Assembly (NCBI RefSeq): GCF_964204865.1
Contig: NC_135260.1
Span: 9,486,001 to 9,550,000 of the forward strand
Source of the DNA: Styela clava
Taxonomy: Eukaryota
DNA: 64,000 nt
Direction: 5' to 3'
Shown here: piece by piece, positions 9,001 through 45,000 of the stretch
How positions within the stretch are numbered: the first letter of the stretch is position 1
Layout: each line of letters opens with the position of its first letter
Program-made: the position numbers

Positions 9001-12000
9001 ATTGCATTACCAAAACCAGATATTTGATAATATAAAAATAATTGATTAGTAAAACTCCTTTCACCGAATATACATTAAATAGAATTTACATTTTTTCTAT
9101 ATATTATAAGGCGCTCCAGAAGTATGCGCACCAAGATGGCGCACAACCTGATAACCCTAACCTGGTACACATATTATGTTCAGGTTGTGCGCCATCTTGG
9201 TGCACATACTTCGGGAGCACCTACCAAAATTGCTTTCTGTGCGTTGATCAATGTAGTTCAGGTTACCATTTCATCATGATATTGGACGCGAAGTGTACCT
9301 ATGGATCGTATTGTCATTTCCTATTTTTCTTATTGTTATTTCTCTGGGTTCTGTGGGATTCGTTTTTCATTAAAAAATTATGTGTGATGACGTCATCAAA
9401 ATTAATAAAAATTGTGCACCGTCCGTGGTTCCGTGATCGCATCTCAGCGATCTGGTGGTCAGATTATCGGTACTGAAAAAAATTTGACACTTGTTCGTTT
9501 TGGTCTTCGTGTCCATATATTTGAGAATTGGTCTCTTGTTTTTAATATTGTTATCATCTCTGGGGTGCAATTGACAAAGTCAAATGTGTGCAAATTTTCT
9601 ACCAGATTTCCCTATATGACGTCATCAGTTTAAGGATGACTTGGAAATAAAGAAGATTTCTGTACCGCAGGTTTTTCCATGTACAACAAATTTGTCATCT
9701 TAAAAATTTGAGCATTTACCGCCACGAGAAGTTTACAGCTATTGCAGTGAATATAACATTTCGTTGGTTCGAGTATTGTTGATTTATCTTTAGTCAAAGC
9801 AAATTTGTTTCACTCAAGCTATTTTTCAACGTAAATCTAATAATTCAAAATATGTCCTCAGAAAAACGATTTTCAATGTTGTTCTGATTAATTTCACCTC
9901 GGAGTAAGTATATGAAAATCATCGTCAAATGAGTGTTAATGATCTTTTCCAATATGCTAATCAATGTTCTTCATTCCCCAGGTCGTTCATAAGAAATCAC
10001 CGCCTATCTACCTAGTGAGACTTCTACTTTTCTACTAACTAATCCAAGCCCACCAGGCAATAGATTTTAATCGGCTTTTTGATTTCCGTAACATCGATTT
10101 ACTTTGCGTATATTAGGTAGAGCCAAATTCACTGATTCTTCTATACCCTTCTATCCAAGTAGGCCTACTGCTCTACCCCGTGCCAAATCCTTTCTGCCTG
10201 GACAAAACTCAATTCGAAAGTTATGTTTCAGTGAAAATGGAATTCTGACTTGGAAGTGTTACCGGATGTAACATTGGCTAATCAGCATCAGCAATCCTTC
10301 CGATTTAATGCCATATGCAATCACTCATAAAAAATGCAAGGAACGTTTGCCTATTCCAGCACATTAAAGCAAATTTCAAACAAAGGATTCAATAACTTAC
10401 TTTTGTGGTTTTGTGTATGTGCGGAACTCTACTTTCGTCAAATCTCTGTTGAGCATATTGTTCGACTGCGGTTCAGCACTGATACCTTGCGCCCTCTCTT
10501 TTTTGGCTTTCTTTGATTTTTCTCCCGCGCCATGTCGCGGTTGAGTAGCAACTGGGAAGACCGACTGAATAAGAAAAATATAGAATAATAAATGGCCTTA
10601 TTTTTACTAACTAACCAAATATAGGGAATGTTTAACTTTCAAAAAACAACATAAAATCAAAAATTCACAGTATGACGGTTTTTTATATCTATCCTTAAAG
10701 GAAAAACAAGAGAGCGATGCTCAAATATATGGACAGGAAGTAGATATGCAATACGCTACAGAAGTCTACCGATACTGTACCACGCTGACCACCATAACCA
10801 ACTTACGCGAAAGAGGAACCGCCACAAGCAGCGCAAATTATTTTTGATGACGTTCTCGCGCACACACACACACAAAAAAAAAATAGGGGCCACTGAAATT
10901 TTTGAAATTAATAAAAGTCAAAGCCGATTAGCGAAAACACAGACAGTCCCCGAACTCTTAATAGAACTAAAAAAAGGAAAATCGGAAATAAAGTTATGTC
11001 CTAACTCTAACTTAGTATACACACTACGGGAGTACCCAGAGAAGTGGCTGAGCGCTTAATTGACTAAATCAAAGATAATGATAGACGTGGCGTAGGCGGC
11101 CATACTTGACAGAATAAAATCATTGTTTTTATGATTTGAAATAAAACAACACGAATTTGGGGGTAATATAGGATCTCAGAGGAAAATTGAATAAAAGTAA
11201 AATAATATTTATTTTTAGTGACTGTTTCCATCTTTAAGTACTAAAAACTTAAAATCGATTGATCCATTAATTGGGAGAAAGACGATTTTTTTTGCACCAA
11301 AAGAGTCCTCCAACAATAAGACTAACAGCGACAACGTTGGAGCAAAACGATCCACAAGCCCATTTCGTGTCCAAAAAAAGGAAAACCTGATAACCCAGAA
11401 TTACATGCTACATGCTTGCTGACAAAATTTTGCCTTCAAAGGCAGTTATGCATGAATATTGATGGGTAATAATGGATAAATATGGATCGTGTTTGACGGT
11501 TACAAGTTTGGCAACTAAATATTACCAATATAAATTGATATTGTTGAAAACAAACAATTTAACATTATCGCACTCTGTAAATCGACACATTATTAGTCGT
11601 TCCTAGATTTTTTCCTATTGGACACGAAATGGACTCATGGATTGTTTTGTTATTATGTTGTTTGTGATTTTGTTGTAAGTATTCTTCTTTTCTTGTTGTA
11701 ACTATTGTTAATGTGAAAAAAAGGCCTTTACTTTTTTACTGGGCCAATTTCTTTGAAAGTGGTGAAAGATTGTATTTGTCGCTAGAAGGCTTACTTTTAT
11801 TTTTTTTAACTTGGTGGGCTTTATGGGATTCGTTTTTTTTTTTTTGTGTGTGTGATGGCGTCATTTGGATAAAAATGTCGCACCTCGTGACGGTTCCTCG
11901 TTAGCGTTTGTTAAGACTGGGGTGCCGGTACTCTACTGTAAATGATTGCGTACTCGTACTACTTCGTTATGACTTTCGTTTCCATATATTTAACATTGCT

Positions 12001-42000: not shown

Positions 42001-45000
42001 TTATATTAATTCGAAAGTCTAAAGATCGCCAGGCGACTTACGTGCTATTCGAATACAATATATGCTTCTTGTGGTATTTGAACATTTTAAGTATTTAGTA
42101 ATTATTGGTTGATAGTTACCCTTCATAATCTTGTTATATTCTATTCTCTAAGCCGATTTCAAGTTAAGATATTATTTTATTTATTTGTTTTAATTTTCTA
42201 GCTAAGAAGGAGGATGGTGGGATTTCGCCAAAAAGTGATTCTGGAAGCACTGGCCGGAAGACACCAATGCGCAAGGTGTCAGCAGAAGAAATCAACCCGA
42301 AACATCTTCCACTCAAACCAATGATATCAAAAGACCAGCTGGGTTCTCCTAGTTTTTATGCCCCGGCAGAAACATCACCTATTCTAGCACGCAGGTGAGC
42401 TGTATGAAACAATCTTGCTTGTATTAAAAATCTGTGACTTCTTATCTGGCATTTTCGAGTCTTCAACATTTAGTTTGTAGAGTATCACAGCAGAAAATAG
42501 TTCATTTTTAAGAACATAATTGATGGATATCACGAAGGCCTAGTTCTAGAGTTTCAACTCTAAGATATGCTACAAATAATGTTTTTGCATAAATAACTAT
42601 TCATTCTTCTTATATGCGCTGCGTATAATGCAAGGATTCTGTAGCGTGAACGCAATTGGTAAAAGGAAAAGTTACAGAAATATAGTTGTGGTAATGTGGA
42701 ACGAGACTCGTTTCTTTTAATTTCTAAGTATTTTAAATTTACAAATATGTAAAAATCTATTTTCCGCCCCAAAAACCACGACCACTATGTATTTGTTTAA
42801 ATTATTTATCTTATCTTTTCCTTCACGGCGTAGTCCAGTAATGAACGAACTATATAGCAGCCTTTGGGCCGTATGCGCCCCTCCATGGCTTGAACAAAAC
42901 TCACGAATATCATTAGATTCGACACCGTCATATCCAATGGAAATAGTAACTGTGGTGTTACATGCCTCTCTTTGCAAAAAGGGGTTCTGAATGCGACCCA
43001 TGCAAAAAAAACTTTACCCCACCCCTGGTGTTGTTTATCTCACCTGCGCATTTACGAGCAAAAGCTGTAGTGAAAGGTTAACAGCATGTGGTAATTTTCG
43101 ATCACGGCTCTCTATTTTCTACATGCTTTCCATCTATTAATTTCAATACAAATACAGATCTTCTTCAGTCAAAAGAGTCACAGAAAGCAAGACTCGTCGC
43201 ATTTCTCATTATCATATGGACAAAGCAACTGCAGCAGAAACATCCTCGGGACTTTCGATCATAGACGAACGAGATATGATCATGGAACTTGTAAAAGACA
43301 TTGCGATGGACTTAGATATTACCTCAGTCAGTCACCGTATATTGCAGGTTCGCTGTTATATATGATTAAAACGTAAATTATTAAGGTGTTAAAAAGTAAG
43401 GAATTGTAAGTAGGCTTAGTATGTAGCACTCTAAATACAACATTACTGATTGTAGATCTCAGAGACTCTACTAGAGCCTGATAATCAATTGCTATTTTGG
43501 TCTTATTCTCAGGTTGTTGCCCCATAGATAAACAGAAAATGAGTGCGCCCAAATTACTCAATAACTGTTGCTTAGCTTACCGGCACAACAGAATGTAGTA
43601 ATATTAATTTATTTGTTCATTTTAATCACAACATGATCAAAATAGACAATACAACTGATATTCGATACCTAATTCATCCAAACGATTAAGAATGCAATAC
43701 CGATATATCGGTACAGTTCCATAATTCCGTTCCGTCTTTTCTCGAAGTAAACATATAAATCACAATCAAGTATGGTCCACGACTAAACGGCGCGATAAAC
43801 CGATGAAACATGCTTTATGCTTGCCTGCTTTCAGGATTAAAATAGAAAAAATACCCTGCGTCAGTACGTGATGAATTTCATACTCTTGCGTCCTAATTTT
43901 CGTTTGTTTATCAACAAACACAGACCAGCTATATCAGTATCGATTATCGTAAAGATAAAAATTAAAATAATGTGATAAGAATCGTAAAATAAATAAAATA
44001 GAAATTTCTAACTATACAATGACATCTGGGAAATTTAGAAAAAAAAAACAGTAAACTCAATGATAAATGAGAGTCATTTACAACCGGTCAATTCACTGTC
44101 GACGTAACGTCTGAGTAATGTGCTATAACTAAAATGAGCTACATGAACGCGAATTTAGGCTAACTTATTGTGTTTTTTTTAACTATTAGTATAATATTGA
44201 TATTATGTATTATATGGTATTCATTATATATGAATATGTATATTATATATATGTATTAAATGTGTATATATGTGTAAATATGTATTGTAAGCATATTATA
44301 AGTGGGCAACTAAAAAGTCTTTTATGCTTGTTTTGAACTGTAGCGTACCTAATTGTTCACCAAAGTATTCAGTTATTTCAATATTATACGGTGAATACTT
44401 TATCATAATTAGGAAAGCATTACTGGCCATAACAGTAAAATCCTAAATAGAGAATACCAGTAACGTCCACCGCCGTGCTTTTTACTTGAATCTTATCGTA
44501 AAAAAAATCGTTATTTTTTGTTTAGAATGTCAGCATCCTACTCGAAGCAGACAGATGTTCTCTCTTTTTAATTCGAGAGAAAGACGGAGAAAAATTTTTG
44601 GTCAGTCGATTGTTTGATGTAAATAAGGTAAGAGAAATTGATGAACTGTCAAAATAACAATCTTATTCTCTATTATTATTTTAATATAGTCTGATAATTA
44701 AAATTGAAAATGGGAAAGTTTTATTATAATGGGTTTATTGATTTCGAAATCGATTATTTTTCCGATTTAATCATATTACTGGGTGTTATGTGGGCTAAGT
44801 CACTATAGTATATGATTGGCTGCCCCCAAAATCAACAGACCGTTTATATGGAAGACCATTCAAATAGATGATCATGCATTCATCTCGGTTCCTAATTTTG
44901 TTAATTCTTGAAAATAGAAGTTCAAGTTTGTTTACCAACAAAAATCAGATCGGATACTGACAAATCTTCCATGTTATTTACATTCGGATGTCTCTTTGCC

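What the first reader, a model, noticed from the sequence alone, without database searches (positions are those of the whole stretch)
10401..42394. PKG I and its feedback substrate PDE5-like sit head-to-head: a candidate cGMP-signalling gene pair
Seen: a PRKG1-like ATG at 15283 (minus) and a PDE ATG at 39758 (plus) diverge across 24.5 kb in which I recognised no other coding gene. The PDE keeps TPMRKVSAEE, plus RRSS and RRIS motifs. Established: PKG I phosphorylates PDE5 at RKISASE (Ser102 in human) as negative feedback on cGMP. In human, PRKG2 and PDE5A are both on chromosome 4q but far apart. Inference: kinase and phosphodiesterase may share enhancers here, and the adjacency may be an ancestral microsynteny or a lineage-specific functional cluster.
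Basis: partly seen in the sequence, partly recalled or inferred. Interest (0 to 1): 0.7.

Follow-up and report, generated by a model that had tools for sequence, protein, structure and literature searches.

The report
Tunicate PKG and PDE5 genes back-to-back
In a sea-squirt genome, the start of a cGMP-dependent kinase gene and a PDE5-type phosphodiesterase gene point away from each other across an apparently gene-free 24.5 kb, but nothing yet shows this neighbourhood is more than chance.

Summary
The window is tunicate DNA: its PDE exons match a public Styela clava protein at about 99-100%. It is not human.

On the minus strand lie two well-spliced exons (15283-15152 and 10564-10401). They encode a PKG I leucine zipper (Pfam PF16808, 41.1 bits against a cut-off of 35; the only PDB matches are PKG I alpha zippers). 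They also encode the autoinhibitory motif, which matches Drosophila FOR. No cGMP-binding or kinase exon lies in the window.

On the plus strand, from ATG 39758 to beyond 64000, runs a GAF-GAF-PDE gene. In my tree it is sister to vertebrate PDE5A (96/92). Vertebrate PDE11A could not be sampled.

The RKVS site aligns with the PDE5A Ser102 region. The same motif occurs in 117 of 121 relatives, so it is a family trait and not special to this locus.

The 24,474-bp spacer shows no tRNA, Rfam or Pfam signal and no ORF or codon signal above noise.

Shared enhancers and ancestral microsynteny remain untested, because no eukaryotic genome collection was available. Interest is modest.

The parts
15152..15283 (-). 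PKG I-type exon 1: start codon plus the leucine-zipper dimerisation/docking coiled coil (44 codons)
   Evidence: Pfam PF16808 PKcGMP_CC, E 1.3e-10, 41.1 bits against a cut-off of 35. The only 3 PDB sequences matched at E<=1 are PKG I alpha zippers 4r4l, 4r4m and 1zxa, E 1.4e-4 to 3.4e-4. Donor AAA|GTAAGT. Codon log-odds 10.5 bits, rank 10 of all window ORF segments, although not used in training.
10401..10564 (-). PKG I-type exon 2: linker plus autoinhibitory pseudosubstrate (…KKERAQGISAEPQS…)
   Evidence: Consensus acceptor and donor. The junction LDKFK|SVFPV and the motif RAQGISAEPQS parallel 'LDKFQSVFPF … RALGISAEPQS' of Drosophila FOR P1, as printed in PMC10299703. Codon log-odds 10.2 bits, rank 11. 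Negative results: no hit in PDB, the protein collection or the Atlas.
15284..39757 (.). 24,474-bp spacer between the divergent start codons; no gene recognised
   Evidence: 0 Rfam and 0 tRNA matches. ORF lengths near chance. 144 ORFs of 48 aa or more have no credible Pfam match. The best codon log-odds segment scores 9.2 bits, rank 16, within noise. No paralogue of the PKG or PDE 5' exons. Few repeats: 1.8% self-repeat.
29894..30044 (.). 151-bp hairpin-like palindrome in the spacer (63-nt arms, 97% complementary, 25-nt loop)
35372..38770 (.). About 150-bp inverted repeats (35372-35522 and 38618-38770) bracketing 3.1 kb: candidate non-autonomous DNA-transposon relic
   Evidence: 87% identity over 147 nt in inverted orientation; arms confirmed. 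No Pfam transposase in the enclosed ORFs.
39758..39785 (+). PDE exon 1 (MMELDPAVV)
   Evidence: Identical to the N-terminus of P0002, the public Styela clava record. Donor G|GTAAGT.
40655..40813 (+). PDE exon 2 (EAWLDDHPEF… N-terminal box)
   Evidence: tblastn of P0002, 96% over 55 aa; the mismatches fall at the HSP ends, in intron. A WLDDH-like box is present in 109 of 121 relatives.
42202..42394 (+). PDE exon 3, carrying the candidate PKG/PKA phospho-acceptor TPMRKVS(89)AEE (Ser codon 42279-42281)
   Evidence: 100% identical to P0002 over 64 aa. Aligns to 'TPTRKISASEF' of PDE5A chains 9lss, 3bjc and 3mf0, E 0.057-0.35 for this 64-aa exon alone. P-x-R-[KR]-x-S occurs in 117 of 121 relatives.
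43158..43347 (+). PDE exon 4: RRSS (across the junction), RRIS, and the start of GAF-A
   Evidence: 100% identical to P0002. RRISH[YW]H also occurs in the Ciona intestinalis, Phallusia and Clavelina proteins, but in none of the non-tunicate rows among the 40 printed.
44526..63466 (+). PDE exons 5 to about 21 (GAF-A, GAF-B, most of the catalytic domain). The gene runs off the window at residue 791 of 878.
   Evidence: tblastn exon map with AG/GT at every boundary. PDEase_I hits on 3 exon ORFs, E 4.6e-15, 5.7e-5 and 3.7e-11.
62272..62335 (+). Catalytic-domain exon, version A (GILITGCDIAAITKPWNVQKK), the one used in P0002
63400..63463 (+). Catalytic-domain exon, version B (GMIMTGTDISAISKPWIIQSK): a tandem duplicate of the same length and phase
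   Evidence: 14 of 23 aa and 40 of 64 nt identical to version A. 64 nt is not a multiple of 3, so the two cannot both be included. Phallusia, Clavelina and one Ciona savignyi protein are closer to B.
53266..59059 (-). Glycosyltransferase family 18 (MGAT5/GnT-V-like) gene, nested antisense in the 9.5-kb PDE intron 52259-61767
   Evidence: Pfam PF15024 on ORFs 53266-53667 (E 1.8e-18), 55670-55930 (1.3e-30) and 57981-58514 (4e-29); weak on 58745-59059 (E 0.018).

Best explanation
The window holds two genuine cGMP-pathway genes of a stolidobranch tunicate (Styela clava or a very close relative). They are transcribed away from each other.

One is the 5' end of a PKG I-type kinase gene. It contributes the leucine zipper exon and the autoinhibitory exon. 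The rest of the gene lies beyond the window, past an intron longer than 10.4 kb.

The other is a GAF-A/GAF-B/catalytic phosphodiesterase of the PDE5/PDE11 clade. In my tree it is sister to vertebrate PDE5A.

The likely biochemistry is the established loop. cGMP activates PKG I. PKG, or PKA, phosphorylates the serine of TPMRKVS in the PDE's N-terminal arm. This raises cGMP binding at GAF-A and raises hydrolysis, which gives negative feedback. That site is a deeply conserved family feature, so the loop does not depend on the gene arrangement.

The 24.5 kb between the genes contains no recognisable gene, only a hairpin and a transposon-like inverted-repeat pair.

The adjacency itself is most likely a neutral outcome of genome rearrangement, with each gene using its own part of the spacer as regulatory DNA.

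Shown: the gene identities, the exon structure, the orientation, the site conservation and the empty spacer.
Inferred: the phosphorylation, the feedback and the neutrality of the linkage.
For: Species:
- The PDE exons are about 99-100% identical to P0002, whose source name is Styela clava 'cGMP-specific 3',5'-cyclic phosphodiesterase-like'.

PKG:
- PF16808 scores above its cut-off.
- The only PDB matches are PKG I alpha zippers.
- The exon 1-2 junction and the pseudosubstrate parallel Drosophila FOR.
- Both exons have consensus splice sites.
- Both rank 10th and 11th in a codon log-odds scan that was not trained on them.

PDE:
- PDEase_I matches 3 exon ORFs.
- GAF, GAF and PDEase domains are precomputed for P0002.
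- Against the PDB, P0002 scores 757 bits with PDE5A, 438 with PDE6C, 418 with PDE6A, 352 with PDE2A and 247 with PDE10A.
- The tunicate clade is sister to vertebrate PDE5A with support 96/92, and the wider tree follows the species tree.

Phospho-site:
- It aligns to the PDE5A sequence TPTRKISASEF.
- The motif is present in 117 of 121 relatives.
- The PKG-to-PDE5 Ser102 feedback is described in PMC3263465 (passages).

Spacer.

Distance: 24.5 kb exceeds the mean of 19.5 kb per gene, from 340 Mb and 17,428 genes (PMC7540406).
Against: - No cGMP-binding or kinase exon lies in the window, so an intact PKG gene is not demonstrated.
- No protein of 98-2000 aa in the 5.8-billion-protein collection shares PKG exon 2's words. 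This suggests public annotation does not include that exon.
- Exon 2 also found nothing in the PDB or the Atlas.
- The phospho-site exon's alignment to PDE5A is weak on its own (E 0.057).
- Most of the PDE's best non-tunicate relatives carry the source name PDE11(-like). No named vertebrate PDE11A could be put in the tree. The tunicate and PDE5A stems are both long (0.54 and 0.38), so the sister grouping could partly be long-branch attraction.
- Neutrality of the adjacency is an assumption and was not tested. For a pre-specified pair, the chance of adjacency is only about 1-2 in 10,000.
Confidence: 0.6

Rival explanations
1. The pair is a selected, co-regulated module. PKG I and its feedback phosphodiesterase share enhancers in the 24.5 kb spacer. 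The linkage is kept by regulatory constraint, either inherited from the chordate ancestor or fixed within tunicates.
For: - Divergent orientation with a large spacer in which no gene is detected. This is the layout expected of a shared regulatory landscape.
- Both genes belong to one biochemical loop (PMC3263465), and the site is conserved.
- Recalled, not from any call: human PRKG2 and PDE5A both lie on 4q, and PRKG1 and PDE6C both lie on 10q. This would fit an old shared linkage group.
Against: - No cross-species or expression data could be consulted.
- Two literature searches found no report of such linkage (0 papers in each).
- The pair was noticed after the fact.
- Recalled: tunicate genomes are known for heavy loss of ancestral gene order.
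- Recalled: in human the genes are tens of Mb apart.
- The spacer shows no internal signal that I could score.
Confidence: 0.2
2. The two genes are not true neighbours. The spacer holds an unrecognised transcription unit, such as a lineage-specific short-exon gene, a lncRNA, or alternative 5' exons or promoters of PKG or the PDE.
For: - 24.5 kb is longer than the genome's mean spacing of 19.5 kb per gene.
- ORFs of 100 aa or more are mildly over-represented: 9 against 4.5 +/- 2.1.
- My detectors are insensitive. Several real exons score under 5 bits in the codon scan, and only 4 of the 10 known exon ORFs gave a family match of their own.
- PKG genes in fly and vertebrates use several promoters (fly: PMC10299703; vertebrates: recalled).
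Against: - No Pfam, Rfam or tRNA hit.
- The longest ORF is within the chance range and has no Atlas look-alike.
- No paralogue of the PKG or PDE 5' exons.
- No codon-usage peak above noise.
Confidence: 0.15
3. The PKG-like exons are a non-functional relic, left by a duplicated or translocated 5' fragment. The functional PKG gene lies elsewhere.
For: - Only two exons are present, and no downstream domains lie within 10.4 kb.
- No database protein contains exon 2.
Against: - Both exons are open with perfect splice consensus.
- Their codon usage is as coding-like as that of verified exons.
- The pseudosubstrate core is intact and matches fly FOR.
- Recalled: long introns are typical of PKG I genes.
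Confidence: 0.05

Closest known systems
Vertebrate PDE5A (cGMP-specific, GAF-containing phosphodiesterase)
   Same: - The same GAF-A/GAF-B/PDEase_I architecture.
- By far the best PDB match: 757 bits against 438 or less for PDE6.
- Sister clade in the tree, support 96/92.
- The N-terminal WLDDH box and the TP-x-RK-[IV]-S-A site align with the Ser102 region.
   Different: - About 50% identity or less.
- A second basophilic site, RRISH[YW]H, seen only in the tunicate proteins.
- A tandem pair of alternative 64-nt catalytic-domain exons.
- A GT18 gene nested in an intron.
- Substrate specificity was not tested.
Invertebrate proteins named 'dual 3',5'-cyclic-AMP and -GMP phosphodiesterase 11(-like)' (source names)
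   Same: - The best-scoring non-tunicate relatives: 827-921 bits and 45-51% identity for most rows.
- The same architecture and the same RK[IV]S site.
- The same 19-row clade, support 98/95.
   Different: In the tree the tunicate proteins group with vertebrate PDE5A and not with these proteins. Whether vertebrate PDE11A belongs in this clade could not be tested, because no named vertebrate PDE11A was retrieved.
PKG I (vertebrate PRKG1 I-alpha; Drosophila foraging)
   Same: - The leucine zipper is recognised by PF16808 and by PKG I alpha structures.
- 'LDKF[KQ]SVFP' and 'RA[QL]GISAEPQS' are shared with FOR P1.
   Different: - Here the zipper and the autoinhibitory segment are on two exons separated by a 4.6-kb intron.
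- The regulatory and kinase domains are not in the window.
- No second (I-beta-like) first exon was found.
Bidirectional (head-to-head) gene pairs and conserved microsyntenic blocks
   Same: Divergent orientation and no detected gene between the two.
   Different: The start codons are 24.5 kb apart, far beyond the roughly 1 kb used to define bidirectional promoters (recalled definition). Conservation across species, the defining feature of a microsyntenic block, was not testable here.

Membership tests
cGMP-dependent protein kinase type I (PKG I) | N-terminal leucine-zipper coiled coil | tested here: met
   PF16808, 41.1 bits against a cut-off of 35. The PDB hits are only PKG I alpha zippers.
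cGMP-dependent protein kinase type I (PKG I) | Autoinhibitory pseudosubstrate following the zipper | tested here: met
   RAQGISAEPQS in exon 2 against RALGISAEPQS of FOR P1, printed in PMC10299703. No profile exists for this segment. There was no hit in the PDB or the protein collection.
cGMP-dependent protein kinase type I (PKG I) | Two tandem cNMP-binding domains | tested here: inconclusive
   None found among the 105 minus-strand ORFs of 27 aa or more in 1-10400. They would lie outside the window if intron 2 exceeds 10.4 kb.
cGMP-dependent protein kinase type I (PKG I) | C-terminal Ser/Thr kinase domain | tested here: inconclusive
   Not found in the window; it cannot be looked for beyond it.
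PDE5 (GAF-containing cGMP phosphodiesterase) | PDEase_I catalytic domain with an HD metal motif | tested here: met
   PF00233 on 3 exon ORFs. HNWRHAF and HDLDHRG can be read in exons 50971-51057 and 51615-51749. That these are the metal-site motifs is recalled.
PDE5 (GAF-containing cGMP phosphodiesterase) | Tandem GAF-A and GAF-B domains | tested here: met
   P0002 carries PF13185 and PF01590, and its GAF residues map exon by exon onto the window at 91-100% identity. Single-exon Pfam scans of two GAF exons found nothing.
PDE5 (GAF-containing cGMP phosphodiesterase) | PKG/PKA phospho-acceptor in the N-terminal arm (human Ser102) | tested here: met
   TPMRKVSAEE aligns to TPTRKISASEF of 9lss, 3bjc and 3mf0. 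The motif is present in 117 of 121 relatives, so it does not discriminate PDE5 from proteins named PDE11-like.
PDE5 (GAF-containing cGMP phosphodiesterase) | Orthology to vertebrate PDE5A to the exclusion of PDE11A and PDE6 | tested here: inconclusive
   Sister to vertebrate PDE5A with support 96/92, and separate from the Drosophila Pde6-type clade. Vertebrate PDE11A and PDE6 were not sampled, and both stems are long.
PDE5 (GAF-containing cGMP phosphodiesterase) | cGMP-selective hydrolysis | not testable with these tools
   Needs an enzyme assay.
Conserved microsyntenic / co-regulated gene pair | Adjacent genes with no gene between them | tested here: inconclusive
   Nothing was detected in the spacer, but sensitivity to short-exon or non-coding genes is low.
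Conserved microsyntenic / co-regulated gene pair | The same adjacency in other lineages | not testable with these tools
   The only genome collection open holds bacteria and archaea. The literature searches found 0 papers.
Conserved microsyntenic / co-regulated gene pair | Correlated expression or a shared enhancer | not testable with these tools
   No expression or chromatin data are available.
Bidirectional-promoter gene pair | Divergent starts within about 1 kb (recalled definition) | tested here: not met
   24,474 bp separate the ATGs. The transcription start sites are unknown.

The most novel reading that the evidence does not exclude
The divergent PKG I / PDE5-type pair is a conserved regulatory block. 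A shared enhancer landscape in the gene-free 24.5 kb would co-express the kinase and the phosphodiesterase that it activates, so that the cGMP negative-feedback loop is hard-wired at the level of genome architecture. The block would be inherited from the chordate ancestor. The loose human linkages PRKG2-PDE5A on 4q and PRKG1-PDE6C on 10q (recalled) would be its dispersed remnants after the vertebrate genome duplications.
Probability: 0.1. Interest if true: 0.6.

Novelty: new member of a known kind. Interest (0 to 1): 0.3.

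Why it matters
If the linkage proved conserved or co-regulated, it would be a rare animal example of a kinase and its feedback substrate held together in the genome. It would also give a compact, experimentally tractable ascidian locus for dissecting how cGMP signal strength is set transcriptionally.

As it stands, the solid gains are descriptive:
- A tunicate PKG I 5' end that public protein sets seem to lack.
- Evidence that the PDE5 Ser102-type site is ancestral to the whole PDE5/PDE11 clade, cnidarians included.
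- Placement of the ascidian enzyme next to vertebrate PDE5A.
- A pair of apparently mutually exclusive catalytic-domain exons.

Tried and rejected
I replaced them with ORF-by-ORF scans.
- PKG exon 2 as a query found nothing in the protein collection with 'longer' lengths, in the PDB at E<=10, or in the Atlas.
- The 159-aa spacer ORF 28508-28984(-) has no Pfam family and no Atlas look-alike. Its length is within chance: 22 of 200 simulations reached it. I rejected it as a gene candidate.
- A search for a second, I-beta-like PKG first exon, or for alternative PDE 5' exons, by tblastn of the five 5' exon peptides gave only noise (best non-self E 0.62).
- ORF 8073-8429(-) looked faintly like the start of a cNMP-binding region by eye. 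It has no Pfam support and I dropped it.
- I tried to place vertebrate PDE11A in the tree. All three cluster look-ups (representatives) named PDE5A, invertebrate proteins and protist proteins, but no vertebrate PDE11A.
- I considered and rejected PDE6 identity (438 bits or less against 757 for PDE5A). PMC4906994 (passages) reports a Ciona gene basal to vertebrate PDE6; whether it differs from the Ciona relative found here was not checked.
- Literature searches for PKG-PDE linkage found nothing: 'PRKG1 + PDE5A + synteny' gave 0 papers. 'cGMP-dependent protein kinase + phosphodiesterase + microsynteny' gave 0 papers. 'PRKG2 + PDE5A + chromosome 4' gave 1 unrelated paper, seen as a listing only.
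- No complex prediction was run. A kinase with its substrate is a poor case for that tool.

Full report
**What the window is.** The window is 64 kb at 31-37% G+C, with no N. A catalytic-domain exon used as a query returned a protein whose source name is Styela clava 'LOW QUALITY PROTEIN: cGMP-specific 3',5'-cyclic phosphodiesterase-like' (P0002, 878 aa). tblastn of P0002 against the window maps residues 1-791 onto about 21 plus-strand exons. Identity is about 99-100% inside the exons, with a handful of substitutions. Every boundary has AG/GT. The window is therefore tunicate DNA from S. clava or a very close relative, and it is not human. S. clava is reported to be 1.72% heterozygous (PMC7540406, passages), which would account for the few differences.

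Window sequence was searched exon by exon, and the joined step was left out. Whole-protein comparisons use the public record P0002.

**The kinase side.** On the minus strand, the ATG at 15283 opens a 44-codon exon that ends at AAA|GTAAGT.
- Its translation matches Pfam PF16808 (coiled-coil N-terminus of cGMP-dependent protein kinase) at E 1.3e-10, 41.1 bits against a curated cut-off of 35.
- In the whole PDB, only three sequences match it at E<=1. All three are PKG I alpha leucine zippers: 4r4l, 4r4m and 1zxa.
- After a 4.6-kb intron, a second exon (10564-10401) has a clean acceptor and the donor AA|GTAAGT. It encodes SVFPVATQ…KKERAQGISAEPQS….
- A paper on Drosophila foraging prints the FOR P1 segment '…LDKFQSVFPF…QRALGISAEPQS…' (PMC10299703, two passages). 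The window reads '…LDKFK|SVFPV…ERAQGISAEPQS…' across the exon junction. Both the splice and the pseudosubstrate core are therefore those of a PKG I orthologue.
- In a crude codon log-odds scan trained only on PDE and GT18 exons, these two exons rank 10th and 11th among all ORF segments of the window.

There are weak points on this side.
- Exon 2 found nothing in the 5.8-billion-protein collection (2 candidates, none significant), in the PDB or in the Atlas.
- None of the 105 minus-strand ORFs of 27 aa or more in 1-10400 matches a cNMP-binding or kinase domain.
- Only the first 98 codons of the kinase are therefore in view. An intact gene is inferred and not shown.

**The phosphodiesterase side.** Three exon ORFs hit PDEase_I (E 4.6e-15, 5.7e-5 and 3.7e-11). 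P0002 carries GAF, GAF and PDEase domains. Against the PDB, P0002 scores 757 bits with PDE5A, 438 with PDE6C, 418 with PDE6A, 352 with PDE2A and 247 with PDE10A.

Its best non-tunicate relatives, however, are almost all named PDE11(-like) by their sources (827-921 bits, 45-51% identity for most rows).

I built a tree of 30 named proteins with IQ-TREE and a site-heterogeneous model.
- It recovers a 19-row clade (support 98/95) that holds these 'PDE11-like' invertebrate and cnidarian proteins, the five tunicate proteins and vertebrate PDE5A.
- Inside that clade the tunicates are sister to vertebrate PDE5A (96/92), and amphioxus comes next (90/91). This is the order of the species tree.
- A Drosophila Pde6-type clade and a 'PDE11A-like' clade fall outside.
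- Caveats: no named vertebrate PDE11A or PDE6 could be sampled (look-ups). The two sister stems are long (0.54 and 0.38).
- 'PDE5 orthologue' and 'pro-orthologue of PDE5 and PDE11' both remain open.

**The phosphorylation motifs.** TPMRKVSAEE lies in exon 3 (Ser codon 42279-42281). As a 64-aa exon on its own, it aligns to 'TPTRKISASEF' of PDE5A chains 9lss, 3bjc and 3mf0 (E 0.057-0.35). The review PMC3263465 (passages) describes phosphorylation of PDE5 Ser102 by PKG, and separately feedback on cGMP through PKG phosphorylation of PDEs.

Among the 121 proteins then in hand, 117 carry P-x-R-[KR]-x-S in the first 400 residues, typically TPVRKISAHEFER. The site is thus ancestral to the whole clade and does not mark this locus.

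RRIS (RRISHYH) recurs in the Ciona intestinalis, Phallusia and Clavelina proteins. It appears in none of the non-tunicate rows among the 40 printed. RRSS was seen only in Styela.

**The spacer.** The start codons diverge across 24,474 bp.
- Rfam at gathering score gave 0 matches, and there are 0 tRNAs.
- ORF lengths are near chance: a maximum of 159 aa, reached in 22 of 200 simulations, and 9 ORFs of 100 aa or more against 4.5 +/- 2.1 expected.
- The ten longest ORFs, and then all 144 ORFs of 48 aa or more, gave no credible Pfam match (best E 0.0047).
- The best codon log-odds segment in the spacer (39475-39561, minus strand, 9.2 bits) ranks 16th. It sits among unannotated noise segments from elsewhere in the window.
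- There is no paralogue of the PKG or PDE 5' exons.
- What is there: a 151-bp hairpin (29894-30044); a pair of roughly 150-bp inverted repeats 3.1 kb apart (35372-35522 and 38618-38770), which looks like a non-autonomous transposon; and four short tandem arrays.

These tests would miss a lncRNA or a young gene with short exons. Several real exons score under 5 bits in the codon scan.

**What the arrangement means.** The biochemical loop is well supported by homology. The regulatory and evolutionary reading is not tested. No eukaryotic genome collection or expression data were available, and two literature searches for PKG-PDE linkage found no paper.
- The distance of 24.5 kb rules out a classical bidirectional promoter.
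- It exceeds the mean of 19.5 kb per gene in this genome, from 340 Mb and 17,428 genes.
- For a pair named in advance, adjacency would be improbable (about 1-2 in 10,000). But it was noticed after the fact, among all functionally related neighbours. By my rough estimate, dozens of such pairs arise by chance in a genome of this size.
- I therefore rate neutral adjacency as the most likely reading, a shared regulatory landscape as a live minority reading, and an unseen intervening transcript as a third.
- Human map positions that would fit an old shared linkage group (PRKG2 and PDE5A on 4q; PRKG1 and PDE6C on 10q) are recalled and were not checked here.

**Verdict.** The genes themselves are ordinary orthologues of known families. 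The linkage is a lead worth a quick synteny survey and nothing more yet.

Noticed in passing
window 53266-59059, minus strand, inside PDE intron 52259-61767: A glycosyltransferase family 18 (MGAT5/GnT-V-like) gene is nested antisense in a 9.5-kb intron of the PDE. Pfam PF15024 matches three ORFs with E 1.8e-18 to 1.3e-30.
   Followed up: partly
window 62272-62335 and 63400-63463, plus strand: Two tandem homologous 64-nt exons encode the '…TG[CT]DI[AS]AI[TS]KPW…' segment of the catalytic domain. They share 14 of 23 aa and 40 of 64 nt, and they have the same phase. Their length is not a multiple of 3, so they are probably mutually exclusive. The public Styela protein uses the first. Phallusia, Clavelina and one Ciona savignyi protein resemble the second more closely.
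   Followed up: partly
window 1323-1543, 8806-8875, 9104-9223, 10945-11037, 40049-40156, 50024-50262: A short palindromic MITE-like repeat family (about 70-220 bp, 80-97% identical between copies) is scattered in introns and flanks of both genes. One copy lies in PDE intron 1, 300 bp downstream of exon 1.
   Followed up: no
window 29894-30044: A 151-bp near-perfect hairpin (63-nt arms, 97% complementary, 25-nt loop) sits in the middle of the spacer. Its nature is unknown.
   Followed up: no
window 35372-35522 and 38618-38770: An inverted repeat pair (87% over 147 nt) brackets 3.1 kb that has no recognisable transposase. It is a candidate non-autonomous DNA transposon, about 1 kb upstream of the PDE start codon.
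   Followed up: partly
window 40814-40821 (end of PDE exon 2): Two GT dinucleotides lie 5 nt apart after exon 2. Only the first (CAA|GTACTG, exon end 40813) keeps the reading frame into exon 3 and reproduces the public protein (…VPSTKKEDGG…).
   Followed up: yes
proteins P0010-P0121, not in the window: The motif TP-V-RK-[IV]-SA-x-[ED]F that matches the PDE5 Ser102 site is kept in proteins named PDE11-like from cnidarians to arthropods (117 of 121). In the tree these proteins share a clade with vertebrate PDE5A, so their automatic 'PDE11' names may not reflect orthology.
   Followed up: partly
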